Shown here piece after piece: positions 12,768 to 63,069 of a stretch of DNA of 64,000 nt. Position 1 is the first letter of the stretch, and every line of letters begins with the position of its first letter. The position numbers were made by a program, and so were the translations under genes. The notes under the pieces are model-generated. The model made no database searches, was not told the origin of the DNA, and saw nothing but the letters and a program-made list of their open reading frames with translations. Origin of the DNA: Minisyncoccota bacterium (GTDB taxonomy: Bacteria; Patescibacteriota; Minisyncoccia; Phycocordibacterales; UBA9973); contig JBAZSZ010000002.1 of assembly GCA_041662205.1 (NCBI GenBank), positions 27,957 through 91,956 on the forward strand. The letters run 5' to 3'.

Positions 12768-14471
12768 TTAGGCAAATTCTTGTTGATAACACTTTACGCA
12801 ATAGACTATCTCTGGTCTCTCTGGCGCATAAGAAGTCCTGATAATATCACCACATTTCATACATTCACGATCATACAATCCCGGTTTTTGTAATTTATCA
12901 AAACGAGATTTTTCCCTGCATTTTAGGCATCTAGCCGGCAATGGTAGATTCATCTTTCGTAGTAGATCAAATTCCAAGCTGGCAATTTTATATTTCCTTT
13001 CACAAGTGGCGCAAGAAATTATTTCTTTTAAGATTGATTCATCTACTTCTGCAATAGTTTCAGGTAAATCTTTTCCTGAAAGAGTAGCCTCCGCTTGTTT
13101 TTCTTCTTCATCATTCCAAGCATAGCCATCTTTCTGTGCTTCCTCTTTTGTCTTTGGAAAAAATTTACAAGCGTTAGAATTATTATAAGCAAATTTACTA
13201 AATCCAGGCTGGAAAAATTCTCCATGCGGCCAAGCTCTCCCCTTTTCATCTATGTAAGGATTCTTTTTCATATCCTCAATAATTTTTTCTTTCAAAATTT
13301 CATATTCTTTTTTATTGTATTCTTTATTTAAAATACAATGACTTTTGCGCTTAAGATTCACACAACCAAAATTATTTTTTGACGCTGTGCACCAAAGACA
13401 ATATTCTGTGTTAAGTATTTCAGGGAAACAATAGGCTGAGAATTTCGTATTGCTGACGCTGTCTCCCACACTAGCTGATTCATAAATAAGCTCGGCATTA
13501 GCTCCCCAACCGGAATAATCAAAACAGTCTTTGGTTGATTTCACACTAATAAGCTGACACCATTTGCAATTTTCTAAATGGCTAGCTATATATATTTCCT
13601 TAGAATTTTTTGATTTATAAAGATATTCTCCAGTAACATTTAGATTAAAAGTATCTCCAGTAAAAGAACGATAAGGAAATTTCTGCCAAAATATTTCCGC
13701 CTCTTTTTTAAACACATTAATACCAGAACGAGTATTTAATCTTAACTCTTTCAATTTATTCAAATATTCTTCCTTGGTATACTGAACATTAAAAATTCTA
13801 TAAGAAGCACCACGCAAATTCACACAACCGACACAGCTCATACAACCATAACAATTACGCGAAAAATACACTTCGTTACAATCATCACATTCCTGTGAAT
13901 AAAAAGTATGGTAGCATTTACGTTGGCCTATGGACTCATAACATAATTCAGAACCAAAAATTCGCAAACTATCAGCTGTATCCTTAGCTCCGTTTAAAAT
14001 TGAAGAAAAATAAACATTTTCACAATAATCTGCCGCAGTAATTAAGGTACAATTTTTTGAATAAGCTAAAGCATTGCAATATTCACAATTTTTAAGAGTT
14101 AAATAAGTAGATTCAAGTGCAACATATGGGGTTTTTTCTGAAAGTTCTTTCCATTGTGCTAAAAACGACCGATTATGATTATAATCCATCGCATATTCAG
14201 TGCCATCCCAATCATCCGCCCACCAACATGACTGACAATATACAATAATTTTCTGTGTTGATGGATACATTGAAAGTGTGCGTTTCTTACACTTGTCACA
14301 ATTTCTACAAAAGAGGGACCACCAATTAATAGAAGACATACGCCTTATCATCCGACATTCTGGACACCAAGTCGGTGCTGGCACTTTAATCTTTTCGTAA
14401 AAATTAAAATCTTCCGGTTCAATGGTAAAGTCTTTCTGACAGTTTTTACATACTTTTGTTTCAGCTTCCAT
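12768..14471 (-). CDS. Large Cys-rich protein with terminal zinc-ribbons and repeated C-x2-C-x6-8-S-[KR]-N-C modules; function unknown
   Basis: The 567-aa ORF contains more than 20 CxxC pairs. There is an N-terminal ribbon (CKNCQ...CPEC) and a C-terminal ribbon (CATCE...CLKC). Internal repeats include KNCEYCN..SKNC, NCYGCMSCVGCVN and NCKWCQ..KDC. Confidence 0.6.
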   Translation of the reverse strand: MEAETKVCKNCQKDFTIEPEDFNFYEKIKVPAPTWCPECRMIRRMSSINWWSLFCRNCDKCKKRTLSMYPSTQKIIVYCQSCWWADDWDGTEYAMDYNHNRSFLAQWKELSEKTPYVALESTYLTLKNCEYCNALAYSKNCTLITAADYCENVYFSSILNGAKDTADSLRIFGSELCYESIGQRKCYHTFYSQECDDCNEVYFSRNCYGCMSCVGCVNLRGASYRIFNVQYTKEEYLNKLKELRLNTRSGINVFKKEAEIFWQKFPYRSFTGDTFNLNVTGEYLYKSKNSKEIYIASHLENCKWCQLISVKSTKDCFDYSGWGANAELIYESASVGDSVSNTKFSAYCFPEILNTEYCLWCTASKNNFGCVNLKRKSHCILNKEYNKKEYEILKEKIIEDMKKNPYIDEKGRAWPHGEFFQPGFSKFAYNNSNACKFFPKTKEEAQKDGYAWNDEEEKQAEATLSGKDLPETIAEVDESILKEIISCATCERKYKIASLEFDLLRKMNLPLPARCLKCREKSRFDKLQKPGLYDRECMKCGDIIRTSYAPERPEIVYCVKCYQQEFA

Positions 14472-14475
14472 TTTA

Positions 14476-15216
14476 TTATTCTATAATCTTTTTAAACTCT
14501 TCTGGTATTGGAGATTCTATTTTTATAGTTTCACCTTTAAGATTCTTAAATTCTATAGATTTCGCGTGCAAAGCTAAGCGCGAGATGCCCTTGGGGCAAG
14601 GATTATCAGGATTATAGAGAGAATCACAAGCGACAGGGTGATTTAAGAATTTCATATGCACGCGGATCTGGTGCGTCCGGCCAGTTTTAGGTCTAACTTC
14701 AATATATGTAAAATTTCCAGACAGGAGCTTATGAAAATTTTTATCGGTGTGGGAACCCTTTAGGGAGGAACCGGAAAAATTTTCATAAGCTCCTGTTTTA
14801 AATCTTTTTAATACTCTATATTGAGTTATCGCCTCTCGCATTTCTCCACGCGCTCCACGACCAGCAGAATAACGTCGAAAGTCCTTTGGACTTCTCCCGA
14901 TAGGTTTATTTATTATCCCCCGTTCATTTTTTACATTTCCCGAAACAATAGCATGATAAATCTTTTTTATTTCTCTGTTCTTAAATTGACTCTTGAGAAA
15001 TTCATGAGCTTTTTTATTTTTAGCTATCAGCATTACACCAGAAGTTCCTTTGTCTAACCTATGCACTAATTCTGCTTTTGGATATTTTTTTACAGCCCAA
15101 TCTAAAATAGTTTTTTCCTTACTGGTTTTATCGGGGTGCACCAAAATCCCCGAAGGTTTATCTATGGCTAAAATATTAGTATCCTCATATAAAATTTTTA
15201 TTTTTTCTGGCATCAT
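14476..15216 (-). CDS. RluA-family pseudouridine synthase carrying an in-frame palindromic insertion
   Basis: HRLDKGTSGVMLIAKN has the catalytic Asp, and the C-terminal PKTGRTHQIRVH motif is present. Confidence 0.85.
   Translation of the reverse strand: MMPEKIKILYEDTNILAIDKPSGILVHPDKTSKEKTILDWAVKKYPKAELVHRLDKGTSGVMLIAKNKKAHEFLKSQFKNREIKKIYHAIVSGNVKNERGIINKPIGRSPKDFRRYSAGRGARGEMREAITQYRVLKRFKTGAYENFSGSSLKGSHTDKNFHKLLSGNFTYIEVRPKTGRTHQIRVHMKFLNHPVACDSLYNPDNPCPKGISRLALHAKSIEFKNLKGETIKIESPIPEEFKKIIE
14722..14795. repeat. 74-bp palindromic element inserted in frame in the pseudouridine synthase gene
   Basis: There are perfect 21-bp inverted repeats: caggagcttatgaaaattttt and aaaaattttcataagctcctg. 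They flank a 32-bp GC-rich core. The element encodes an extra peptide, GAYENFSGSSLKGSHTDKNFHKLL. Confidence 0.7.
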
Positions 15217-30090: not shown

Positions 30091-31356
30091 TTATTTTCTA
30101 ACAGAATAATTACCCATGGCTATCCATTTATAAGTGGTCATTTCTTTGGCTCCCATCGGACCACGAGCGTGGAGCTTGGAAGTAGCAATGCCAATCTCTG
30201 AACCAAGTCCGAATATGGCGCCATCAGAAAATCTAGTAGAAGCATTGACATACACTACCGCCGCATCCACTTCATCTAAAAATTTTTGGCAATTCTGCTT
30301 ACTCTCAGATAGAATTGCTTCCGAGTGTTTAGAGGAATATTTATTAATATGCTGGATAGCTTCGTCAACATTAGAAACAATTTTTACTGACATTTTTTGA
30401 CTTAAGAATTCCCTTCCAAAGTCTCCTATTGTCGCCTTTTTCAAAAGACTAGCCGGATAACTTTTTCTTAATATTTTAAAACTTGATAAATCAGCAAAAA
30501 TTTCTACATTCTTTTGGATTAAAAATCCAGCAAGTATTGGCAGAAATTTTTGCGCTACTTTCTGATGTACTAATAATGTATCCAAGGCATTACAAACGCT
30601 GGGACGTTGTGTTTTAGCATTAAAAACAATCTTGGCAGAAGCATCGAGCTTGGCAGATTTGTCCACAAAAGTATGACAAACTCCAGCCCCTGTTTCAATT
30701 ACCGGCACCGTAGCATTATTTCTCACAAAATTTATTAAATTAGAACTTCCACGCGGAATAATAACATCCACTAAACCTTCAGCTGAAACAATATCCAAAA
30801 CAACATCTTTTATTTTTGGATCTATAAATTGAACTACTTCAGGACTAGCCCCAGATAATACTAAAGCATTTTTTATAATTTTATGCAGAATTACACAGCT
30901 TTCTCTTGCCTCTTTCCCCCCTTTCAGAATCACCGCATTGCCAGACTTGATACAGATAGCAGCCACATCCGTGGTTACATTGGGCCTTGATTCGTAAATA
31001 ACACCGATCACTCCTATCGGCACTCTTTTTTTGCAGATCTTAAGTTCTTTATTCTCTATGTTATCGCGACAATCAAAAATTTCACCAATTGGATCTTTCA
31101 TCTTTATCAAACTTTCAATTTCTTTTGCCATACTTTCAATGCGTACATCATTCAATAAAAGACGGTCCCGCATCGGATCATTTAAAGTAATTTTTTTTAA
31201 ATCTTTCAAATTTGCTTTAATAATTAATTTTTTATTTTTACGTAATTCTTTGGCTAAATTTTTCAAAATTAAAGTTCTCTGAGCGTAGGATAAAAGACTG
31301 AATTTTTTAGAAGCTTTTTTGGCTTTATTCAATTGTTGTAATATTTTTTTATTCAT
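30091..31356 (-). CDS. proA: Gamma-glutamyl phosphate reductase
   Basis: Aldehyde dehydrogenase fold with the ProA C-terminus (VYVNASTRFSDGAIFGLGSEIGIATSKLHARGPMG). Confidence 0.9.
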   Translation of the reverse strand: MNKKILQQLNKAKKASKKFSLLSYAQRTLILKNLAKELRKNKKLIIKANLKDLKKITLNDPMRDRLLLNDVRIESMAKEIESLIKMKDPIGEIFDCRDNIENKELKICKKRVPIGVIGVIYESRPNVTTDVAAICIKSGNAVILKGGKEARESCVILHKIIKNALVLSGASPEVVQFIDPKIKDVVLDIVSAEGLVDVIIPRGSSNLINFVRNNATVPVIETGAGVCHTFVDKSAKLDASAKIVFNAKTQRPSVCNALDTLLVHQKVAQKFLPILAGFLIQKNVEIFADLSSFKILRKSYPASLLKKATIGDFGREFLSQKMSVKIVSNVDEAIQHINKYSSKHSEAILSESKQNCQKFLDEVDAAVVYVNASTRFSDGAIFGLGSEIGIATSKLHARGPMGAKEMTTYKWIAMGNYSVRK

Positions 31357-39504: not shown

Positions 39505-42156
39505 TTATCTTTTCAACACTCTTTTAAGATATTTTCCAGTATAACTCTTTGCATTGTTCGCTATTTCTTCAGGCGTACCTTTGGCAACAATCTTGCCTCC
39601 ATTTACTCCACCCTCTGGGCCAATGTCTATAATATAGTCGGAGCTTTTTACAATATCAAGATTATGTTCAATCAAAACGATAGTATTCCCATGAGATACT
39701 AATTTATTTAAAACTTCCAAAAGTTTTTGCACATCATCATAATGAAGCCCCACGGTCGGCTCATCTAAAAGATAAATTGTTTTTTCTAAATGCGGTCGAT
39801 AAAGCTCACTACTAATTTTTACCCGTTGCGCTTCCCCTCCAGAGAGCGTGGTAGCTGATTGTCCGAGCTCTAAATAACCAAGGCCTACATCAGATAGAGT
39901 TTGAAGCCTGTCAGAAATTGCGGGAATATCTTTAAAAAAGATTAACCCATTTTCTACAGTCATGTGTAACACTTCATAAATATTTTTTTTCTTATATTTT
40001 ACAGTAAGCGTCTCTTTGTCAAAACGTTTTCCATTACAAACATCACAAGTCACATAAACTGTGGGTAAAAAATGCATTTCAACGGCTATTTCCCCATTAC
40101 CCTCGCAAGCTTCACATCGTCCGCCTTTTACATTAAAAGAAAAACGATTCGCTTTCCAGCCTCGCAAACGAGCTTCTTCTGTAGAAGCAAAAAGGTCCCG
40201 AATGTGCGTAAAAGCACCAGTATAAGTGACAATGTTTGAGCGTGGGGTCCTGCCAATCGGCGACTGATCAATTAAAATGACTCTTGATAAATATTCAGTT
40301 CCAGAAAAAGAAGAACAATTAAATATTTTTGCCGTACGATATTTTCTTTCAAAACGGGCTTGAAGATTTTTATAAAGAATCTCATACATTAGAGAACTTT
40401 TTCCAGAACCAGAAACTCCAGTAATAGAGGTCATCACTCCGAGTGGCACTTCTACATTTAAATTATTTATATTAAAAATATTTCCGCCTACTATGCGAAG
40501 TACGCCTTTCGGATGGCGTCGCTTATTTGGAATTTCTATTCTAGTTTCATCCCGCAAGTAACTAAGCGTACGAGAATTATTCGTATTCTTTTTTGCAGTT
40601 AATAAATCTTCAAGATAACCAGAAACAATAACTTCTCCGCCGTGCACTCCAGCCTTAGGGCCGATATCCACTATAAAATCCGAAGCATAAATAGTATCTT
40701 CGTCGTGTTCTACAATTAAGATGGTATTACCAAGATCACGCAAGTTTTGAAGGGTTTTAATCAAGCGATCATTGTCTCTTTGATGAAGTCCGATAGTCGG
40801 CTCATCTAACACATAAAGCGCACCGACGAGCCTAGAGCCAAGCTGAGAAGCTAAGCGTATACGTTGCGCTTCTCCACCAGAGAGAGTGTTTGCCTTGCGA
40901 GATAATTGCAAATAATCTAAACCCACATCCAGCATAAATTGGAGCCTGGCTTCTATCTCCTTTACCACTGGCACAGATATTTCTTTCTCTTGTTCTGAAA
41001 GTTTTAAGTTTTTAAAAAAATCGTGCGCATCTTTTATGGAAAGAGAAGATAATTCTAAAATATTTACCTTCCCCGAAACCAGGTTTAGGGACTTTTGTTT
41101 TTTGCTATCTGCCCCTAAACCTGGTTTCGGGGAAATAGAAGAATACAAAAACACATTTAGCGCTTCAGGACGTAATCGCGCTCCATGACAAACTTCACAT
41201 GGTTCATCTCCCATAAAATATTTTGAACCAAGACCGTTACATTCCGGACAGGCACCATAAGGTGAATTAAAAGAAAATAATCTAGGCTCTACTTCTGGAA
41301 AAGAAAAACCATCATTCTTGCAAGCAAATTTTGATGACATTATAAACTCTTCAGCACCAATCTTTATAGCTACCAAACCATCTGATTCAAGAAGTGCCCG
41401 TTCTAGAGCTTCAGCAAGGCGCATTCTACTATTATCTTTATTATCTTCAAACTCATGTACTGCAAAATGATCAACAAGAATATCAATATTGTGAGCTTTG
41501 TTTTTTGAAAGAGTTATTTGTTCGCGAAGCTTTTTCATTACCCCATCAAGACGAATTTCTGCAAAACCTTTTCCAAGTAAATCATAAAGTAATTGATAAT
41601 ATTCGCCCTTTCGTCCGCGCACTATCGGGGAAAAAATACTTATTTCAGTTTCATCCCATTCTACTCCCATAACTTTTTTATTTTTCTTAGAATTTTTACC
41701 TAAGGTATTAATTTTTTCTAAAACAAAATTTAAAATTTCTTCGTTAGAAAGTTTTTTAATTTCCTCACCGCACAAAGGACAATGCGGGTGCCCAATGCGT
41801 GCATACATCACTCGCAGGTAATCATAGATTTCTGTAATCGTCGCCACTGTCGAGCGTGGATTGTTTGAACGAGATTTTTGGTCAATCGAAATTGCTGGTG
41901 AAAGACCTGTGATCTCATCCACGTTAGGCTTTGGCATTTGATTCAAAAATTGTCGAGCATAAGAAGAAAGAGATTCCACATATCGGCGTTGACCTTCAGC
42001 AAAAATGGTATCAAAAGCCAGAGACGATTTTCCGGAACCAGAAACCCCAGTAATGGCTATCATCTTGTTACGTGGCATTTCCAATGAAATATTCTTCAGA
42101 TTATGCGTCCGTGCCCCTTTAACTATTATTTTATCTATATTTTGTTGATTTTTCAT
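39505..42156 (-). CDS. uvrA: Excinuclease ABC subunit A
   Basis: Two ABC ATPase modules, zinc fingers ([25 protein letters not shown]) and conserved UvrA signatures throughout. Confidence 0.95.
41067..41136. repeat. ~70-bp palindromic element inserted in frame in uvrA
   Basis: Inverted repeats ttccccgaaaccaggtttaggg(ac) and (g)cccctaaacctggtttcggggaa flank a T-rich spacer. It encodes an extra [21 protein letters not shown] segment. E. coli UvrA has no such stretch after ARLRxEA. Confidence 0.65.
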
Positions 42157-43372: not shown

Positions 43373-45679
43373 CTATTTCTTTTCCAATTTCAAACGAAGT
43401 ACTCCAATTTCGTCTCTTAAGATCGCCGCTGTTTCAAAATCTAACTCTTTTACCGCTTTATTCATTTCTTTTTCCTTCATTTTAATTATTTTTTCGTAAA
43501 TTAAATTACCAATTTCTTCATCAGATAAATAAGACTGTCCAAGACTGGTGTTTGGTATTTTTTTATTAATTTTTTTATCTTTTTTAAATTCTTTCGCATA
43601 AGCCCGCTTGAAAACTTCTAGATCAAGCTTGAGTTCCGCATTCACCACTTTGCCATGCTCACTCTCCATTTCTTCAGTAATGTCTTTTATCTTTTTTATA
43701 ATTGTTTTCGGAGTAATGCCATGCTTTTTGTTATAAGCAAGCTGAATGTTTCTACGACGAGCAGTTTCCTTTAGAGCATAATCCATTGCTCCCGTCATGA
43801 TATCAGCATAGAGAATAACCTTTCCCTCACTATTGCGAGCTGCGCGACCAATAGTTTGGATTAAGGATGTTTCGGATCGTAAAAATCCAGCTTTATCAGC
43901 ATCCAAAATTCCAATCAGAGCAACTTCTGGCAAATCGAGCCCTTCACGCAACAGATTAACTCCGACCAAAACATCAAATTCTCCTTTTCGAAACTGAGTC
44001 AGAATTTTAATTCTATCCATCGTCTTTATATCACTATGTAAATATTCTGCTTTTATTTTTTTATCCTTCAGATAAACAGAAAGGTCTTCTGCCATTTTTT
44101 TTGTTAGTGTTGTAGCCAACACTCTGAAACCTTTTTTAATTGTTTTTTCTGTTTCACTTATAAAGTCTTGAATTTGACCAGGGTAGTGCTCAAGATGATG
44201 CTCAGAGGAGTATTCGCTACGACCAGAAAGAACTTTCCCTTCCAAGATAGAGTGCGAACGACGGCGAGTATCATCTTGAGCGCTACCTTCAGAAACGGGA
44301 CGAACTATGGTTTCTGGATCTACCAGTCCGGTTGGGCGAATTATTTGTTCTACTATTTGTTCGCTTTCTTTTCTTTCCACATCACTCGGGGTCGCACTCG
44401 TATAAATCACTGGACCAATTCGTTCTTGAAATTCCTTATATTTAAGTGGTCTATTGTCTTTGGCTGAAGGTAAACGAAAACCATATTCGACAAGAGTGTT
44501 TTTACGTGAAGCATCACCAGCGTACATTCCATTTAATTGAGGCAAAGTAACATGCGATTCATCAATAATGGTAAGGAAATCTGGAACATACTCAGAGGAG
44601 TATTCGCTACGACCAGAAAGAACTTTCCCTTCCAAGATAGAGTGCGAACGACGGCGAGCATGTTCCTGGTTTTCTACATGGGGGAAATAAGACAACAATG
44701 TCTCTGGCGGTTCACCTTCTTCTTTTCCAGATAAATGCCTAGAATAATTTTCTATCCCATTACAATATCCAACTTCTTTTATCATCGCTAAATCATAATT
44801 TGTCCTCCTTTTTATGCGCTCAGCTTCTAAAAGTTTTCCTTCTTTTTCAAATTTCTTTAACTGCTGTGCCAATTCTTTTTTAATTTCAATAAGCGCTTTT
44901 TTCTTTTTTACATCTTCTGTAATAAAATGCTTTGCTGGAAAAATAAAAATATTTTTTTCTTCTCTAATTATGCGCGAAGAAGTTGGATCAACTTTTGTTA
45001 TTTTTGAAATGCTCCCGCCAAGCATTTCAACCTGGTACATAACACTTTCAGACACTGGCATAAATTCTACCCGAGAACCAATAGAGCGAAAAGTTCCCGG
45101 ACTGAGGTCTGCATTAGTACGTTCAAAATAAATACTAATTAATTTTTTCATTAAAGTAAGGCGATCTATTTTCATTCCTATCTCAAGTTTTAAATTAACT
45201 TTTTCATATTCTTCTGGAGAACCCAAACCATAAATACAGGAAACTGAAGCTACTATTATCACATCCCGTCTTGTTAAAAGTGCTTGGGTGGAAGCATGAC
45301 GAAGCATATCTATTTCTTTATTTATAGATGCATCTTTCTCAATATAAGTATCTGAAGCGGGCACATAAGCTTCTGGTTGATAATAATCATAATAAGAAAC
45401 AAAATAATTCACCGCGGAATCTGGAAAAAATTCTCGAAACTCTTGCGCTAGCTGAGCGGCGAGAGTTTTGTTGTGGGCGATCACTAAAGTCGGTTTATTG
45501 TACTGCGCTATCACGTTCGCCATAGTAAAAGTCTTGCCTGTGCCTGTAGCTCCTAGGAGTGTCTGCTTCTTCATCCCCTTAGACAGGCCTTGCACTAATG
45601 CTGAAATAGCCTCGGGCTGATCTCCGGCAGGCTCAAAAGGTTTATGTAATTTAAAGATACTTCCTTGATTTTTCAACAT
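43373..45679 (-). CDS. uvrB: Excinuclease ABC subunit B, with two in-frame repeat insertions
   Basis: Conserved GDQPEAI, GATGTGKTFTMAN and DESH motifs plus a C-terminal UVR domain. At 768 aa it is longer than typical UvrB (~660-670 aa). Confidence 0.95.
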   Translation of the reverse strand: MLKNQGSIFKLHKPFEPAGDQPEAISALVQGLSKGMKKQTLLGATGTGKTFTMANVIAQYNKPTLVIAHNKTLAAQLAQEFREFFPDSAVNYFVSYYDYYQPEAYVPASDTYIEKDASINKEIDMLRHASTQALLTRRDVIIVASVSCIYGLGSPEEYEKVNLKLEIGMKIDRLTLMKKLISIYFERTNADLSPGTFRSIGSRVEFMPVSESVMYQVEMLGGSISKITKVDPTSSRIIREEKNIFIFPAKHFITEDVKKKKALIEIKKELAQQLKKFEKEGKLLEAERIKRRTNYDLAMIKEVGYCNGIENYSRHLSGKEEGEPPETLLSYFPHVENQEHARRRSHSILEGKVLSGRSEYSSEYVPDFLTIIDESHVTLPQLNGMYAGDASRKNTLVEYGFRLPSAKDNRPLKYKEFQERIGPVIYTSATPSDVERKESEQIVEQIIRPTGLVDPETIVRPVSEGSAQDDTRRRSHSILEGKVLSGRSEYSSEHHLEHYPGQIQDFISETEKTIKKGFRVLATTLTKKMAEDLSVYLKDKKIKAEYLHSDIKTMDRIKILTQFRKGEFDVLVGVNLLREGLDLPEVALIGILDADKAGFLRSETSLIQTIGRAARNSEGKVILYADIMTGAMDYALKETARRRNIQLAYNKKHGITPKTIIKKIKDITEEMESEHGKVVNAELKLDLEVFKRAYAKEFKKDKKINKKIPNTSLGQSYLSDEEIGNLIYEKIIKMKEKEMNKAVKELDFETAAILRDEIGVLRLKLEKK
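44191..44278. repeat. In-frame palindromic element in uvrB, copy A
   Basis: The 68-bp core (ctcagaggagtattcgctacgaccagaaagaactttcccttccaagatagagtgcgaacgacggcgag) is identical to 44591-44658. Its flanks caagatgatg / tatcatcttg are mutually inverted. It encodes RRRSHSILEGKVLSGRSEYSSE. Confidence 0.7.
44581..44669. repeat. In-frame palindromic element in uvrB, copy B
   Basis: Same 68-bp core. Its flanks ctggaacata / catgttcctgg are mutually inverted, but they differ from the copy A flanks. Confidence 0.7.
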
Positions 45680-49343: not shown

Positions 49344-51818
49344 TCATTTTACTTCCTGTAGATTGTCTCCAAAACCATAGTGTACTTCTAATGGAATGTC
49401 CGTTTTATAATGTAAATATGATTTTTGCAACACTCCCTCCATGGCCTCTTTTATTATTTTTTCAGCTTTTACTAATACACTTTCTTCCACTTCGTAAACT
49501 AATTCATCGTGGATTTGAAGTATTAAATGAACACTCTCTAATAAACCAGCTTCTTTCAGACCTTCTTCTGCATACCTGATAGCTAATTTAATAATGTCGG
49601 CTGCTGTTCCTTGGAGGGGGGCATTGGTCGCAGTCCGCTCTGCCATGTTTTTCAAAAATGGAATTCTGGAATTTATATTTGGGAAATTTCGGCATCTACC
49701 AAATAAAGTTTCAGTATAAGAATTTTTTAATACGAACTTTTTTACTTCTTCTAGATAATCCCGTACACCAGAAAATTGATTAAAATAATTATCATAGAAC
49801 TTTTGTGCCTCTTCGCGTGTTCCACCTAAGTTTTTTCTTAAAGCAGAAACTCCCATACCATAAATAATTCCAAAATTTATAACTTTGGCTTTACGTCGCA
49901 TTTCTTTGTCCACTTTTTCTATCGGTACACCGAAAACAAATGAAGCCACTCCCGCATGAATATCTTTTTTCTCATAAAAAACTTGGGTCATTTTTTTATC
50001 CCCTGAAAGCATTGCCGCTACCCGTAATTCAATCTGGCTATAGTCAAAAGCAACGAGCTTAAAACCTTTTGGTGCAATAAAACCACCTCGGATTCTCCTA
50101 CCAAGCTCTGTTTTAATTGGTAAATTTTGTAAATTAGGATCCTGTGAGGCAAACCTTCCCGTCGTGGTGCCATTTTGTAAAAATTTAGCATGTAAACGAT
50201 TACCAGCGTCTACCATTTTGGGTATAACATCAATATAAGTAGAGAGTAATTTTTGCAACTCTCGATAAAATAATATTTCTTTTATAATTGGATTTTCTTC
50301 TTCTAATTCTTCCAATACTGACACCTTGGTAGAAAATCCACCACTCGCATTTTTCTTTATTTTGTTTTTCCCTGGTGCTTTCATTCCCATTTTGCCAAAA
50401 AGCACTTCTCCTAATTGTTTAGGTGAATTTATATTAAATTCTGTGCCTGCTTGCTCATATATTTTTTTAGTCAAAATATCTAATTCTGTATGATATTCAA
50501 CTGACAATTTTTCAAAATATTTTTTATCTATTAAAATTCCATAATCTTCCATCTCTTTTACTATAGGAATAATAGGTTTTTCTATTTCTTCATAAACTTT
50601 TTCTAAATTATTTTCTTTTAATTTTTTGAAAATATATTCATAAGCTGTTTCAAAAGAGTTCGTGTGAGTAAAAAATAAAATATCTTCCAAATTTGGATTT
50701 GGAAGATCAGAATTAATGAGCCAGAGAGCGATACTAGCTTCTTGAAGTTTTTGTGGGTCTACGTTAGAAGAAGACTCCAGAGAATTTTTGAGCTGGTCTG
50801 GTTGAGCCCGCTCATTCAAAGAATCCTGTGCGGGCGACCCGAGGACCCGAGAAAATTCTGCTGGAGTCTTCTTCTCACCATTCTCAAAAAAATTTTTCAG
50901 CCGTGTTAATAAACTTCTAAATTCAAAAGTTGAAAAAACTTGTTCAATTTTTTTAAAATCTACACTTTCCCAAAAAGTTTTTGACGGCATTGTAAAATCT
51001 ATTGGTGTATCGGTTCTGATGGTCGCCAAAATCTTTGAAAACAAAGCTTCTTCTTCGTTGTGTTTAAGTAATTCAATCATCCTAGGACTGATGCCCGCTT
51101 TTTTAAAAATTTCTTCATCTTGTTTAATTTTTTTGTAAATTTCTTCAATAGTTCCAAATTTTGAAATTAAAATTTCAGCTGTTTTTTCACCAACTCCTTT
51201 TATGCCAATAATATTATCTGAAGGGTCTCCACGTAGGCCTTTATAGTCCGGTAAAAGTTTCGGCTTAAAATGAAACCGATTTACCATGGCATCTTCATCA
51301 TATAAAATAGTATCGTTGATTCCCTTTTTCAAAGTGTAAACCTGTACTTTTTTACCATCTACCAATTGCATAGTATCCATATCACCTGAGGCAATAATAA
51401 TTTTTATATTTTTATCTTTTTTATATTTCTCCACAATTGTTCCCAAAACATCATCCGCTTCAAAGCCAGGCGCATCATATATCGGTATGTCAAAAGCCTC
51501 AAAAATCTGACGGGAGTTTTTTAATTGAATTATTAAGGCATCCTCTGTCTTTGCTCGGCCTGCCTTGTATCCATCATGAGCTTCATGTCTAAAAGTTTTT
51601 TGGGGTAGGTCATAACAAGCCACAATATAATCTGGCTTTAATTCGGTAATTATTTTCATCAACATACTAGAAAGTCCATACAACGCTCCTGTCGGCTCAC
51701 CCGAAGATGACAGAAACTCTGGTAAGGCATGATACGCGCGGTGGATTATGGCATGGGCATCTAGTAATACTAAAGTTTTACTATTATTTATGTCACTATT
51801 TATTTTGGTTTTTGGCAT
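49344..51818 (-). CDS. polA: DNA polymerase I (5'-3' exonuclease plus polymerase; the 3'-5' exonuclease region is replaced by a linker)
   Basis: N-terminal 5'-nuclease fold, then polymerase motifs DYSQIELR (A), RRKAKVINFGIIYG (B) and QIHDELV (C). Confidence 0.95.
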   Translation of the reverse strand: MPKTKINSDINNSKTLVLLDAHAIIHRAYHALPEFLSSSGEPTGALYGLSSMLMKIITELKPDYIVACYDLPQKTFRHEAHDGYKAGRAKTEDALIIQLKNSRQIFEAFDIPIYDAPGFEADDVLGTIVEKYKKDKNIKIIIASGDMDTMQLVDGKKVQVYTLKKGINDTILYDEDAMVNRFHFKPKLLPDYKGLRGDPSDNIIGIKGVGEKTAEILISKFGTIEEIYKKIKQDEEIFKKAGISPRMIELLKHNEEEALFSKILATIRTDTPIDFTMPSKTFWESVDFKKIEQVFSTFEFRSLLTRLKNFFENGEKKTPAEFSRVLGSPAQDSLNERAQPDQLKNSLESSSNVDPQKLQEASIALWLINSDLPNPNLEDILFFTHTNSFETAYEYIFKKLKENNLEKVYEEIEKPIIPIVKEMEDYGILIDKKYFEKLSVEYHTELDILTKKIYEQAGTEFNINSPKQLGEVLFGKMGMKAPGKNKIKKNASGGFSTKVSVLEELEEENPIIKEILFYRELQKLLSTYIDVIPKMVDAGNRLHAKFLQNGTTTGRFASQDPNLQNLPIKTELGRRIRGGFIAPKGFKLVAFDYSQIELRVAAMLSGDKKMTQVFYEKKDIHAGVASFVFGVPIEKVDKEMRRKAKVINFGIIYGMGVSALRKNLGGTREEAQKFYDNYFNQFSGVRDYLEEVKKFVLKNSYTETLFGRCRNFPNINSRIPFLKNMAERTATNAPLQGTAADIIKLAIRYAEEGLKEAGLLESVHLILQIHDELVYEVEESVLVKAEKIIKEAMEGVLQKSYLHYKTDIPLEVHYGFGDNLQEVK
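50767..50875. repeat. ~109-bp palindromic element inserted in frame in the polA interdomain linker
   Basis: Arms gaagaagactccagagaatttt and aaaattctgctggagtcttcttc are inverted with one indel. The GC-rich core has a nested gcccgc/gcgggc inverted repeat. It encodes GEKKTPAEFSRVLGSPAQDSLNERAQPDQLKNSLESSS. Confidence 0.6.
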
Positions 51819-53855: not shown

Positions 53856-53890
53856 TTGTTTATGCTCCTCGTTTGTCGAAATAAAAAAAG
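53856..53890 (+). promoter_or_regulatory. Copy c of the promoter-like motif (TTGTTT-atgCTCCTCGTTTgtcga-AATAAA)
   Basis: Shares 19 contiguous nt (ttgtttatgctcctcgttt) with copy a. Confidence 0.3.
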
Positions 53891-54217
53891 CATTAATCTC
53901 TAAACAATCCTTTCAGAGCTGAGCTCCAAAAGTAATAAAATATTATAGGATAGCCCCAGAAACTAATAAAAGCTCCAAAACGTCCTATGCAAATTCATAT
54001 AACCTATGGCTGATTGCTTAGAGATTAATGCCTTATTTAAATATCAATAAAAAACTTCTAACAATATTATACTATATGCTAAAGCAAGCAAATGCTATAA
54101 TGTTGATAGCTATGTTGATACCCTGTTGATAAATGTACTACATATACAACATAGCATATAAAAAAATTAATGTCAACCCCCATCATTAGTAAATGATAGA
54201 TTTAACAAAAAACCCTT

Positions 54218-60488: not shown

Positions 60489-61586
60489 CTATCTATTCAT
60501 CGGCATTATTAGATAAGTAAATGATGGGTCAGAAACAGGAGAAATAACCATAGGACGGGAAGCCCCAGATAATTTTATAGAAACACTATCGGTATTAATT
60601 GATTGGAAACAATCTAAAAAATACTTATAATTAAAACTTAATTCAACAATTTCCCCTTTAAGAACAGCGTCTAAATATGTTCTATTTTCTCCAATATCAT
60701 TATTAGCAGAGGAAAGTTCTAAAACTTTTTCTTTAGGTGAAATCTTTAAATTAACTTGATTAAATTTATCTGAAAAAATATTAGAAAGTTTTAACGCATT
60801 TAATAAATCTTGTTTGAGCACCACAGCATCCGTCAGTGAATCTTTTGGAATGATTTGTTTATAGTCTGGGAAAATTCCATCAATGATTCTTGAGGTTAAG
60901 TAAATATTATCAGAAGAAAAAGAAATTTGATTTTTATTAAAACAAACTTTTATAATACCTTTAAATTCTCCAAAAACTTTTAATATTTCTCCTATGTTTT
61001 TATATGGGATAAGAATCCCTAAAATTTCCTCAAGTCCTTTTACTTTAACTTTTTTTTCAGCCAACCTAAAAGAATCTGTGGAAACAAAAATTAAATTATC
61101 CTCATTGGTATAAACAAAAACACTCGAGATTTCAGGCTTAATATCTGAAACAGATGAGCTATAATAAACTGCTTTGATACCATCTATTAATTTAGATGAC
61201 TCTATTTCAAAACTACTTCCTGTAACTTTTGGTATTGTCGGAAAATCTTCATGAGGTTGGCTTTTGATTTTAATTTGGCTTTTTTTTGTTTTAATTAACA
61301 AATTACCGTCAATATTTTCAAAAAAAACATTTTCATTTTGAGAAACATTTGAAAAAACAGCATTTAAAATTAACCCTGAAACGGCAAGGGTCCCCTCTTT
61401 TTCTATTTTAGCTGGAATTTCAATTTCAATTCCAAGATTTAGATTAGTGGATCTAAGTTTCAATGAGTTATTAGAGGCAATCAATAAAATTGAACTTAAA
61501 ATTGGTAAAGTTAAATTTTTACCAGTAACCCTTTCTACTTGTGAAATAGCATTTTTTATTTTCTCCACAGAGCATTCTAGTTTCAT
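60489..61586 (-). CDS. dnaN: DNA polymerase III beta subunit (sliding clamp)
   Basis: 365 aa with a three-domain clamp architecture. It lies immediately downstream of dnaA. Confidence 0.9.
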   Translation of the reverse strand: MKLECSVEKIKNAISQVERVTGKNLTLPILSSILLIASNNSLKLRSTNLNLGIEIEIPAKIEKEGTLAVSGLILNAVFSNVSQNENVFFENIDGNLLIKTKKSQIKIKSQPHEDFPTIPKVTGSSFEIESSKLIDGIKAVYYSSSVSDIKPEISSVFVYTNEDNLIFVSTDSFRLAEKKVKVKGLEEILGILIPYKNIGEILKVFGEFKGIIKVCFNKNQISFSSDNIYLTSRIIDGIFPDYKQIIPKDSLTDAVVLKQDLLNALKLSNIFSDKFNQVNLKISPKEKVLELSSANNDIGENRTYLDAVLKGEIVELSFNYKYFLDCFQSINTDSVSIKLSGASRPMVISPVSDPSFTYLIMPMNR

Positions 61587-61731
61587 ATGTTTATATTTTA
61601 TATATTTAAATTATTAATAATATTAAGTGTGTTAATAAGTGTATAAGTATTTTTAATGTTGTTTTTTGTTATTGTTTTTTTTAATTTTAATTTTAATTAA
61701 AGGCTAATAACTTTCTAATAACTATTTTAAA

Positions 61732-63069
61732 TTATTTAAACATAATTCTGATTTGTTCTAATTCTTGTATTAACTGTGGATCATTTTTTAAATCTTCTTT
61801 TATTTTTACACATGAATGCATCACTGTTGTATGGTCTTTTCCACCTAATTTTTGTCCTATAAGTGGATAAGAAACACTGAAATCTTCCCGAAGTAAATAC
61901 ATTATAATTTGTCTAGTTTTCACTATTTCTTTTTTTCTAGTTTTTTCATAAATAGAGTTTTCTTCTAATTTATAATATTCAGCCACAATTTTTACAACAT
62001 CTTTTATTGCCATATTCTTTTTTGGCTTCATATTGTTTTTTAATAGATTTTTAACTTCTGCAAGAGAAGGAGCCTTATTTTTTAAGCGATATTGGCAAAC
62101 AATAAGATTAAGACTGCCTTCGAGCTCACGAACATTTCCTTGGATTGATGTCGCAACATATTCTATTATATCCTCCTCAAGGACTATGTTGAGCTCACGA
62201 AGCCTCACTTTTATAATTGCGATACGAGACTCATATTCTGGTTCTATGACGTCTACGATCATTCCGGCAGCAAAACGGGATTTTAAACGATCAGCTAATT
62301 CTGGAATATAATTAGGATGCTTATCGGAAGAAAAAATAATTTGTTTGTTGTTTTCATAAAAAGTATTAAAGGTGTGGAAAAGTTCTTCCTGAATTTTTTC
62401 CATTTTACCAATAAATTGAATATCATCTATAATTAAAAGATCATACTTTCGATATTTTTCTTTAAAAGAATTTGCTTTATTGCTTTGAAGAGAGTTTATA
62501 AAATCTGTTGCAAACTTTTCTAAAGTCATATAATGTACTTTTTTATCAGGATGCTTGTCTTTTATTGAATTTCCTACAGCTTGAATTAAATGAGTTTTCC
62601 CAAGACCAGTACCACCGTAAATAAAAAATGGATTATATTTAGTTCCTGGTGATTCTATTATTGCTTGAGATGCGGCGTACGCGAGTTCATTAAAGGTTCC
62701 CACAATAAAGGAATTGAAATGATAGCGTGGATTTAGATTATTTTCTGGATTTATATATAAATCTCTCAAAGGCAGTTCTTTTTCAATAGTTTCACTTATT
62801 ATTACTTCTTGTTTAGAATTTTCTATTTTTGTAATAACATATTCCACAGCTCGCATATTTTCATAATTTTCGGCTATAGTTTTGGTTATGAGTTTATGGT
62901 ATTTATTTATAAGCCAATCCCGGACAAATTCATTTGGTACCCCTATATAAACAATCCCATTCTCTTCTTTTGCAATAGATGTGTTCTTAAACCAAGTACT
63001 AAAATTGGCTTTAGACATGTCAGACTCGATTCTCAGTAAGCAACTCTTCCACAATTGGTTTGTGTTCAT
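61732..63069 (-). CDS. dnaA: Chromosomal replication initiator protein DnaA
   Basis: AAA+ Walker A GGTGLGKTHL, Walker B LLIIDDIQF and a C-terminal DnaA-box-binding helix-turn-helix. Confidence 0.95.
   Translation of the reverse strand: MNTNQLWKSCLLRIESDMSKANFSTWFKNTSIAKEENGIVYIGVPNEFVRDWLINKYHKLITKTIAENYENMRAVEYVITKIENSKQEVIISETIEKELPLRDLYINPENNLNPRYHFNSFIVGTFNELAYAASQAIIESPGTKYNPFFIYGGTGLGKTHLIQAVGNSIKDKHPDKKVHYMTLEKFATDFINSLQSNKANSFKEKYRKYDLLIIDDIQFIGKMEKIQEELFHTFNTFYENNKQIIFSSDKHPNYIPELADRLKSRFAAGMIVDVIEPEYESRIAIIKVRLRELNIVLEEDIIEYVATSIQGNVRELEGSLNLIVCQYRLKNKAPSLAEVKNLLKNNMKPKKNMAIKDVVKIVAEYYKLEENSIYEKTRKKEIVKTRQIIMYLLREDFSVSYPLIGQKLGGKDHTTVMHSCVKIKEDLKNDPQLIQELEQIRIMFK

What the first reader, a model, noticed from the sequence alone, without database searches (positions are those of the whole stretch)
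14722..14795. A perfect-arm palindromic element is inserted in frame in the RluA-family pseudouridine synthase gene
The 21-bp arms are perfect reverse complements and flank a 32-bp GC-rich core. The element encodes an extra peptide (GAYENFSGSSLKGSHTDKNFHKLL) just before the conserved ...PKTGRTHQIRVH motif, where RluD-type enzymes have no insert. The perfect arms imply a recent insertion or strong structural constraint. It is a different sequence family from the uvrA, uvrB and polA elements. That points to several MITE-like or RPE-like families, or to a shared insertion mechanism that selects for in-frame outcomes.
Basis: seen in the sequence. Interest (0 to 1): 0.75.

Follow-up and report, generated by a model that had tools for sequence, protein, structure and literature searches.

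The report
In-frame hairpin repeat in RluA gene
A small hairpin-forming DNA repeat sits in frame inside a pseudouridine-synthase gene of a candidate-phyla-radiation bacterium; its conserved core recurs in other genes and genomes, each time with different arms, so it resembles the selfish palindromic elements of Rickettsia and is tolerated in a surface loop of the protein.

Summary
Perfect 22-nt arms (14721-14742 / 14775-14796) flank a 32-nt GC-rich core, in frame in an RluA-family gene of a Paceibacterota (CPR) genome. They add about 25 residues that solved homologues lack.

It is not a one-off. Of 113 orthologues, 31 lack an insert at this loop. About 68 carry this element, 6 of them inverted, and about 14 carry other hairpin families. 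The same core (AAAATTTTT stem, 4-bp inner stem, CCC/GGG, tip hairpin) also lies in frame at two other RluA sites and in RecJ, UvrC-like, PGK and IscS-like genes.

The repeated unit is the core. All helices covary, and the frame is kept in 20 of 20 DNA copies. I found no target-site duplication, transposase or Rfam match.

One empty allele equals a filled allele minus 81 nt and keeps the 5' arm as native codons. In another copy an arm covers conserved Lys-Phe codons. The arms therefore look like inverted copies of host flank, which points to replication template switching.

Verdict: an RPE-like, translated, selfish hairpin element that is not a classical MITE. How it disperses, and why the core is so conserved, remain open.

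The parts
14476..15216 (-). Host gene: RluA-family pseudouridine synthase, 246 aa
   Evidence: ORF. PF00849 E = 1.3e-33. 100% identical to P0001, named RluA family pseudouridine synthase of a Candidatus Paceibacterota MAG.
14721..14796 (-). Whole palindromic element, 76 nt. It encodes T141-L165 plus the first base of S166.
   Evidence: Perfect 22-nt arms and 32-nt centre. Fold z = -9. Model R1 scores 65.4 bits, E = 3.4e-12, on the - strand.
14784..14796 (-). 5' outer arm in coding orientation, ACAGGAGCTTATG. Specific to this copy.
   Evidence: Pairs perfectly with 14721-14733. No counterpart in other copies of the family. It may be native loop codons (TGAY against TDAK in the empty orthologue P0046). 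That is an inference.
14775..14783 (-). 5' AT stem AAAATTTTT, conserved across the family
   Evidence: Present in all 20 DNA copies with few variants. 176 of 182 cells are Watson-Crick paired.
14743..14774 (-). Core, short-tip form: C, inner stem CGGT, loop TCCT, CCC, loop TAAA, GGG, loop TTCCCAC, inner stem ACCG, AT
   Evidence: With the two AT stems it is identical over 50 nt to L081, although third-codon identity of the two genes is 0.44. The inner stem covaries across copies: CGGT/ACCG, CTCC/GGAG, CCGC/GCGG, CCCC/GGGG, CGGC/GCCG, CTCG/CGAG.
14734..14742 (-). 3' AT stem AAAAATTTT, conserved across the family
14721..14733 (-). 3' outer arm CATAAGCTCCTGT, the inverted copy of the 5' outer arm
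   Evidence: Perfect complement. By analogy with L217 against L212, it is probably an inverted duplicate of host flank. That is an inference.

Best explanation
The element is one copy of a family of small, non-autonomous, hairpin-forming selfish DNA elements of Paceibacterota (CPR bacteria). They live inside protein-coding genes and are translated as part of the host protein.

The conserved unit is about 50-62 nt. It consists of an AAAATTTTT/AAAAATTTT stem, a 4-bp inner stem, a CCC/GGG helix and a short or long tip hairpin. Copies survive only where they keep the frame and fall in a permissive surface loop. Here that loop is the tip of a beta-hairpin just before the KTGRTHQIR motif. For this reason the same loop is occupied again and again, by this family and by others.

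The outer arms are not brought in by the element. They are inverted copies of the adjacent host sequence. They were most likely made by snap-back or template switching of the replicating strand at the hairpin. The same process later re-perfects the arms, producing 'compensatory' changes at the DNA level, and can flip the core in place.

Shown: the anatomy, the dispersal across genes, covariation, frame conservation, the absence of target-site duplications, and one arm present in an empty allele.
Inferred: the template-switch mechanism, selfishness, and actual translation.
For: - Same core in other genes. RluA site 1 in many lineages, RluA sites 2 and 3, and RecJ. UvrC-like, PGK and IscS-like genes by profile search, with the DNA confirmed for UvrC-like and PGK. 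Model R1 scores these copies at 52-95 bits.
- Site 1 occupancy in 113 orthologues: 31 empty, about 68 with this family (6 inverted), about 14 with other hairpin families. The distribution on an NJ tree is patchy: 28 state changes against 37.7 for random labels.
- The RecJ DHH loop behaves the same way, with at least 5 insert families.
- Structure is conserved with covariation: 94.5% of cells paired against 75.7% in shuffles, 16 pairs changed on both sides, score 0.386 against 0.095, and sliding the partners drops pairing to 34-56%.
- Outer arms pair with their own partner (179 of 240 Watson-Crick) but not with arms of other copies (82.5 +/- 9.2, maximum 119 in 2000 shuffles). Their mismatches show no strand bias (GT 10, AC 15), as expected for a DNA-level process.
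- The frame is kept in 20 of 20 DNA copies, and tip-length differences are 9 or 12 nt.
- The AlphaFold model puts the insert at the end of a long beta-hairpin (strands 127-147 and 160-176) with a low-confidence tip at 147-159.
- Host-derived arm. Empty allele L212 reads GCGGAGCATTGT|AAATTTACT. Filled allele L217 reads GCGGAGCATTGT|[81 nt: AT stem, core, AT stem, ACAATGCTCCGC, TAAGT]|AAATTTACT.
- In L083b the 3' arm GAGAAGTTTT covers the conserved Lys-Phe codons of the F[TS]Y motif.
- Several filled loops equal a native EAPxK loop plus one contiguous insert at different positions.
- Inverted copies exist at the same site, in the mirror frame that an in-place flip predicts (L084).
- No target-site duplication. 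No transposase among 55 ORFs of the window.
- Template switching is documented to create and maintain perfect hairpins (PMC8794818).
Against: - Copy number looks low. There is no second copy in the 64-kb window. In about 790 kb of CPR loci the only hits were the loci fetched because of the element. Five of six unbiased DNA hits were in RluA. A typical selfish repeat is more evenly spread.
- The core, including its unpaired loops, is far more conserved than neutral sites (50 of 50 nt against third-codon identity of 0.44). That fits selection on a function better than decay of junk.
- The core folds better on the strand antisense to most hosts (GU 60 against 24).
- Nineteen of 20 DNA copies use one frame although five frames are open.
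- The L217/L212 pair can also be read as a deletion that left one arm. GT/AAATTT microhomology lies at both ends.
- The way the core reaches distant genes is unknown.
- Translation is inferred, not observed.
Confidence: 0.62

Rival explanations
1. The core is a functional nucleic-acid motif kept by selection: a structured RNA (possibly an antisense transcript), or a DNA or RNA binding site for a host factor. The hairpin serves regulation, processing or replication rather than its own spread.
For: - The core is identical over 50 nt between genomes with saturated synonymous sites.
- All four helices covary.
- The fold is stronger on the antisense strand in 14 of 16 copies, with conserved U.G pairs there.
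- Copy number is low, with enrichment in one gene.
Against: - It occurs in both orientations at the same site.
- Its hosts are unrelated genes: RluA, RecJ, UvrC-like, PGK, IscS-like.
- Thirty-one of 113 orthologues do without any insert, and about 14 carry a different family at the same loop.
- Tip length and loop sequences vary: TAAA, AGTA, TTC, TGC.
- Outer-arm mismatches are strand-neutral.
- No Rfam family reaches its threshold on either strand.
Confidence: 0.15
2. The insert is selected at the protein level. A beta-hairpin extension (NFSSCALPRVRGGTLGDKNF and variants) adds a useful surface, for example for binding nucleic acid, and spreads by recombination. The DNA palindrome is secondary.
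For: - One reading frame is used in 19 of 20 DNA copies, although five frames are open.
- AlphaFold builds the arms as two paired strands.
- Three hosts act on nucleic acids: RluA, RecJ and UvrC-like.
Against: - The peptide changes wherever the stems covary (SGS/SSC/SRF, SHTD/TLGD/TYAD), while base pairing is kept.
- Inverted copies encode a different peptide, QNFYLRGSHPVLGEGRRRKNF.
- PGK and IscS-like hosts do not bind nucleic acid.
- The tip has pLDDT below 50.
- Many orthologues have no insert.
Confidence: 0.1
3. It is a purely local hairpin made once in an ancestral RluA gene by template switching and inherited vertically. It is not a mobile or repeated element.
For: - Arms are lineage-specific and at least partly host-derived.
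- There is no target-site duplication and no transposase.
- The window holds a single copy.
Against: - The same 44-62-nt core, at 81-95 bits with model R1, lies in RecJ, UvrC-like and PGK genes and at two further RluA sites.
- One gene carries a tandem double copy (L083).
- Filled loops fit insertions at different positions of the native loop.
Confidence: 0.05
4. The segment is not translated. It is removed from the mRNA like an intron, or hopped over by the ribosome as in T4 gene 60 or the mitochondrial 'byp' elements, using the matching AAT TTT codons on both sides.
For: - Identical Asn-Phe codons flank the core.
- A stable GC-rich hairpin sits in an AT-rich gene.
Against: - The ORF stays open and in phase through all 20 DNA copies and about 68 orthologous inserts.
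- Length differences are multiples of three.
- No stop follows a putative take-off codon.
- No intron or ribozyme model matches.
Confidence: 0.03

Closest known systems
Rickettsia palindromic elements (RPE; Ogata et al. 2000, as summarised in PMC10969869)
   Same: Both are palindromic repeat families of a reduced-genome bacterium. Both are inserted in frame in unrelated housekeeping genes. Each family encodes a recognisable peptide and is tolerated in the protein. Several families coexist.
   Different: - RPEs are about 100-150 bp; this core is 50-62 nt.
- In R. conorii, 44 RPE copies were first reported in one genome, many of them in genes. Here density looks low and one gene is strongly favoured.
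- The terminal arms here are specific to each copy and apparently host-derived.
- The lineage is unrelated (CPR against Alphaproteobacteria).
- Sequence similarity to RPEs was not tested.
Bacterial MITEs (Correia/CREE, ERIC, RUP and others; PMC10969869)
   Same: Both are small, non-autonomous and hairpin-forming. MITEs are sometimes intragenic and give in-frame fusions.
   Different: MITEs are defined by terminal inverted repeats shared by all copies, target-site duplications and a parent IS. Here the termini differ between copies, there is no duplication and no IS was seen.
Hairpins created and maintained by replication template switching (PMC8794818; inverted-repeat expansion, PMC13100816)
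   Same: One arm pre-exists and the other is its inverted copy. Perfect stems arise in one step. Apparent compensatory changes and arm homogenisation need no selection.
   Different: Template switching alone does not explain a conserved core shared by unrelated genes and genomes.
Coding palindromes in Nematomorpha mitochondrial genes (PMC6649704)
   Same: Both are long perfect inverted repeats inside translated genes, with both arms encoding protein.
   Different: There both arms encode conserved native protein regions and no dispersed core family exists. Here the palindrome is an extra loop segment.
REP/BIME elements mobilised by RAYT transposases; IS200/IS605-type hairpin recognition (own knowledge)
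   Same: Both are short imperfect hairpins recognised as single-stranded DNA. Neither makes target-site duplications.
   Different: REPs are extragenic and usually abundant, carry a conserved 5' tetranucleotide, and go with a RAYT gene. None of this was seen here.
Translational bypass elements (T4 gene 60; 'byps' of Magnusiomyces mitochondria; own knowledge)
   Same: Both are GC-rich hairpin inserts in AT-rich coding sequence, flanked by identical codons.
   Different: Bypass elements need not keep the frame and often carry stops. Here the frame is always kept.

Membership tests
RPE-like in-frame palindromic repeats (as a kind) | The same element sequence recurs at unrelated loci | tested here: met
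   The core occurs in RluA (3 sites), RecJ, UvrC-like, PGK and IscS-like genes. Copy number within one genome was not testable.
RPE-like in-frame palindromic repeats (as a kind) | Inserted in frame in protein-coding genes and encodes a family-specific peptide | tested here: met
   20 of 20 DNA copies are in frame. The peptide is NFS(G/S/R)..L(K/PRVRG)G...DKNF.
RPE-like in-frame palindromic repeats (as a kind) | Insert lies where the protein fold tolerates it | tested here: met
   The AlphaFold model puts it at the tip of a beta-hairpin, with pLDDT below 50 for residues 147-159. It is absent from solved homologues. Thirty-one orthologues lack it.
Rickettsia RPE families proper | Sequence homology to RPE-1 to RPE-10, and a size of about 100-150 bp | not tested
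   No RPE sequences were available in the tools. The size here (76 nt, core 50-62 nt) is smaller.
MITE | Terminal inverted repeats shared by all copies | tested here: not met
   The outer 12 nt pair only within a copy: 179 of 240 against 82.5 +/- 9.2 with arms of other copies. Only the internal AT stem is shared.
MITE | Target-site duplication flanking the element | tested here: not met
   No direct repeat longer than 3 nt flanks any of the 20 copies, and most have none.
MITE | Parent IS or transposase with matching ends | tested here: inconclusive
   No transposase Pfam hit among 55 ORFs of the window. The window is only part of the genome.
REP/BIME with RAYT | Extragenic location, high copy number, associated RAYT gene | tested here: not met
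   All copies seen are intragenic. The 64-kb window holds one copy. No Y1-transposase hit.
Template-switch-generated hairpin | One arm identical to pre-existing flank, the other its inverted copy | tested here: met
   L212 (empty) keeps GCGGAGCATTGT. L217 adds ACAATGCTCCGC 3' of the core. The 3' arm of L083b covers conserved Lys-Phe codons. For the window copy itself this is only suggestive.
Known structured RNA (Rfam 15) | Score at or above a family's gathering threshold | tested here: not met
   Only sub-threshold generic miRNA-precursor hairpin matches: 31.5 bits at most, against thresholds of 72-211.
Translational bypass or intron-like insert | Insert need not preserve the frame; stops or frameshifts inside | tested here: not met
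   The frame is preserved in every copy, and length variants differ by multiples of 3.

The most novel reading that the evidence does not exclude
This would be a previously undescribed kind of mobile hairpin element in CPR bacteria. It would spread without a transposase, by replication template switching, and build its own terminal arms from the host flank at each insertion. It would flip in place and be kept in phase with the host reading frame. Alternatively, or in addition, its unusually conserved core may be a functional strand-specific nucleic-acid motif that the cell or the element needs.
Probability: 0.3. Interest if true: 0.8.

Novelty: new variant of a known kind. Interest (0 to 1): 0.62.

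Why it matters
If this holds, genes of CPR bacteria, including core DNA-repair and RNA-modification enzymes, are repeatedly invaded by several families of translated hairpin elements at a few permissive loops.

This matters in four ways:
- It would account for some of the length variation seen here among CPR orthologues: 210-296 aa for RluA and 547-610 aa for full-length RecJ.
- It offers a second, independent natural example beside Rickettsia of selfish DNA inside coding sequence.
- It gives a tractable case, with many filled, empty and inverted alleles in public metagenomes, for testing whether template switching can create, extend and maintain perfect hairpins.
- The inserts can split or distort gene calls and alignments. 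They can also seed deletions between copies, as the sequence of P0121 suggests.

Tried and rejected
Only L001 was useful.
It gave 6 true copies among the 80 loci returned, from 120 matching stretches.
A five-frame concatenated peptide query found only 6 candidates, so the word index is unsuitable for a motif census.
- Viral-contig scans for both core types found nothing.
- tblastn of the window's UvrA, UvrB and PolA against the fetched loci found nothing.
- Rfam at permissive thresholds gave only generic hairpin hits.
- A Pfam scan of the window's ORFs gave no transposase.
- The RecJ orthologue comparison did not settle whether an arm is native there.
- The NJ tree of this short protein is too weak to count gains and losses reliably.
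- Considered and rejected: BHB-type intron (no matching bulge-helix-bulge geometry, frame always kept), intein (far too short, no intein motifs), assembly artefact (present in many independent assemblies from NCBI, JGI, ENA and Logan).

Full report
**1. The observation**

On the + strand, 14721-14742 (ACAGGAGCTTATGAAAATTTTT) and 14775-14796 are exact reverse complements. They enclose 32 nt of 59% G+C in a window that averages about 34%. The 21-mer occurs only as these two arms, where 0.02 matches are expected by chance. As RNA the segment folds at -40.2 kcal/mol, z = -9.0.

The element lies in ORF 14476-15216 on the - strand. This ORF is a PF00849 pseudouridine synthase and is 100% identical to an RluA-family protein of a Candidatus Paceibacterota MAG. 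The palindrome starts on the first base of codon T141 and is read through as TGAYENFSGSSLKGSHTDKNFHKLL. Solved homologues align to residues 3-144 and 170-242 with nothing opposite 145-169. An AlphaFold model (pLDDT 85.5) shows the insert as the outer end of a long beta-hairpin (strands 127-147 and 160-176) with a low-confidence tip at 147-159.

**2. Orthologues**

The 120 best homologues (64-84% identity) range from 210 to 296 aa. At this loop, 31 of 113 have no insert, only 2-7 loop residues. About 68 carry inserts with related peptides, such as NFSGSSLKGSHTDKNF, NFSRFTLKGSDTDKNF, NFSSCALPRVRGGTLGDKNF and ISSRSSLPRVRGGSHTDKKF. Six carry the same element inverted (QNFYLRGSHPVLGEGRRRKNF type). 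About 14 carry unrelated hairpin-type inserts such as SPQPSPYKGEG, PLLNKEG and DPSGLKATSPSQG. On an NJ tree presence is patchy: 28 changes against 37.7 for random labels. The tree is weak, however.

**3. Anatomy from DNA**

I recovered 20 DNA copies. All share one plan:
- an outer arm specific to the copy, with 0-14 nt of perfect pairing beyond the AT stem;
- the stem AAAATTTTT/AAAAATTTT;
- one unpaired C opposite AT;
- a 4-bp inner stem;
- an internal loop;
- a CCC/GGG helix;
- a tip that is either short (TAAA, as in the window) or a further 5-bp helix with a tetraloop (CCNCG AGTA CGNGG).

On the alignment, 94.5% of cells pair against 75.7% in shuffles. Sixteen pairs change on both sides. The covariation score is 0.386 against 0.095. 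Sliding the 3' partners by 1-3 columns lowers pairing to 34-56%. The inner stem occurs as CGGT/ACCG, CTCC/GGAG, CCGC/GCGG, CCCC/GGGG, CGGC/GCCG and CTCG/CGAG. Outer arms pair with their own partner (179 of 240) but not with those of other copies (82.5 +/- 9.2).

The AT stems plus core are identical at 50 of 50 nt between the window and L081. Their genes are 72% identical in nucleotides and 0.44 at third codon positions.

**4. A dispersed family**

Three are at the canonical RluA site. One RluA gene has a copy at a second site plus the canonical one (L141). One copy is at a third RluA site (L149). One is in RecJ after the DHH motif (L090).

A profile of the peptide, run against 1.84 billion representatives, found the element in an IscS/NifS-like protein, a PGK and a UvrC-like protein. 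The PGK and UvrC-like DNA copies were confirmed, each with its own arms. One RluA gene has two tandem copies (L083). A covariance model scores all of these at 52-95 bits. In the window it finds only the one copy, and it finds no further copies in about 790 kb of CPR loci. Two viral-contig scans were negative. No Rfam family matches.

RecJ orthologues show the same pattern of one permissive loop. Sixty-eight of 117 are empty and at least five insert families occur. One of them has the peptide of the window's polA insert.

**5. Translation**

Every one of the 20 DNA copies keeps the host frame. Tip variants differ by 9 or 12 nt. The six hits of the DNA scan were not selected for an open frame, so this is not an ascertainment effect. 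The peptide is not conserved where stems covary. The constraint therefore lies on pairing and on frame, not on a particular peptide.

**6. Origin of the arms**

No target-site duplication flanks any copy. The window contains no transposase.

The empty allele L212 reads ...GAAGCGGAGCATTGT|AAATTTACT.... The filled allele L217 reads the same with 81 extra nt at the bar. These are the AT stem, the core, the AT stem, ACAATGCTCCGC (the reverse complement of the native GCGGAGCATTGT) and TAAGT. So the 5' arm is native coding sequence (A-E-H-C) and the 3' arm is its inverted copy.

In L083b the perfect 18-nt 3' arm (AAAATTTTGAGAAGTTTT) covers the conserved Lys-Phe codons that every orthologue has. Several filled loops can be written as a native EAPxK loop with one contiguous insert at different positions.

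The simplest reading is this. The nascent strand copies the core, folds back on its AT stem, copies some host flank in reverse, and returns to the template. That is template switching, which is known to create and maintain perfect hairpins (PMC8794818). The alternative is a deletion that left one arm, using the GT/AAATTT microhomology at both ends. It cannot be excluded.

The native site has AAATTT (Lys/Asn-Phe codons) next to the insertion point. This may add to the hot-spot behaviour. That is an inference.

Inverted copies at the same site use exactly the mirror frame expected if the symmetric palindrome flips in place. That too is an inference.

**7. What does not fit a simple selfish repeat**

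- Density is low and RluA is strongly favoured.
- The core is much more conserved than neutral sites.
- The core folds better on the strand antisense to most hosts, with conserved U.G pairs there. The outer arms show no strand bias.
- Almost all copies use one of five open frames.

These points keep a functional-motif reading alive.

**8. Comparison with known kinds**

The behaviour matches Rickettsia palindromic elements: in-frame, translated, several families, tolerated in proteins (PMC10969869). It fails the defining MITE features of shared termini and target-site duplication. It is not a REP/RAYT system, an intron, an intein or a bypass element. The host-derived arms match template-switch hairpins.

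I found no paper describing such elements in CPR or Patescibacteria in the held library. That is not proof of absence.

**9. Verdict**

'Recent insertion', 'arms as the repeated unit' and 'MITE with target-site duplication' are not.

The best explanation is a translated, selfish hairpin element with a conserved core and arms built from host flank (confidence about 0.6). I rate it a new variant of a known kind, of moderate to high interest.

Noticed in passing
window 41069-41134 (uvrA, - strand gene 39505-42156): Perfect 22-nt arms TTCCCCGAAACCAGGTTTAGGG with a 22-nt centre. In frame, encoding [23 protein letters not shown]. The sequence is unrelated to the RluA element.
   Followed up: partly
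window 44182-44287 (uvrB, gene 43373-45679): Inverted repeat with 22-nt arms, 91% complementary, and a 62-nt centre. In frame (GSAQDDTRRRSHSILEGKVLSGRSEYSSEHHLEHYP).
   Followed up: no
window 50763-50878 (polA, gene 49344-51818); P0159, P0129, P0131: The polA insert peptide PAEFSRVLGSP...PDQLKNS recurs in the DHH loop of RecJ orthologues of other Paceibacterota. It is therefore a second dispersed in-frame family.
   Followed up: partly
window 30494-30553 (Aldedh-like gene 30091-31356): Perfect 12-nt arms GCAAAAATTTCT/AGAAATTTTTGC around an AT-rich 36-nt centre. Weak hit of the element model (19 bits, E = 0.13). It may be a decayed relative or chance.
   Followed up: no
window 53882-54039 (between the T2SSE/PilB-like gene and ruvB): Intergenic inverted repeat with 28-nt arms, 89% complementary, 102 nt apart.
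   Followed up: no
P0121 (RluA fragment, 150 aa): The protein runs from the site-3 element copy straight into the sequence downstream of site 1, and so lacks the catalytic HRLD region. This is either a deletion by recombination between two element copies in one gene or an assembly collapse.
   Followed up: no
L212 4603-5271 against L214 6263-6994: The two RluA genes are identical for about 230 nt upstream of the element site but differ at 17 mostly synonymous positions in the 100 nt downstream. A recombination breakpoint coincides with the element.
   Followed up: partly
RluA orthologues P0007, P0008, P0045, P0077, P0020, P0121: Further GC-rich hairpin-type inserts lie at other loops of the same enzyme: KPASTRGGS...STRGG and AEQARNGAGP after HPD, LPAGKAG near the C-terminus, and PIPLPNLPLIKGEEKGG.
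   Followed up: no
L211 1100-1524 (PGK): The PGK reading frame carries an in-frame TAA (…LNKGE*NNSP…) shortly after the element, and homology continues beyond it. This may be a sequencing error, a pseudogene or something else.
   Followed up: no
window 60489-63069: dnaN and dnaA lie on the - strand at the right end, and GC skew is negative across the window. The origin is probably just right of 63 kb. Most genes, RluA included, are co-oriented with the leftward fork, so the RluA sense strand is the lagging-strand template.
   Followed up: partly
window 12768-14471: A 567-aa Cys-rich protein with no Pfam match lies directly downstream of RluA. The same neighbour (567-569 aa) is kept in related genomes (L082, L083, L084, L086).
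   Followed up: no
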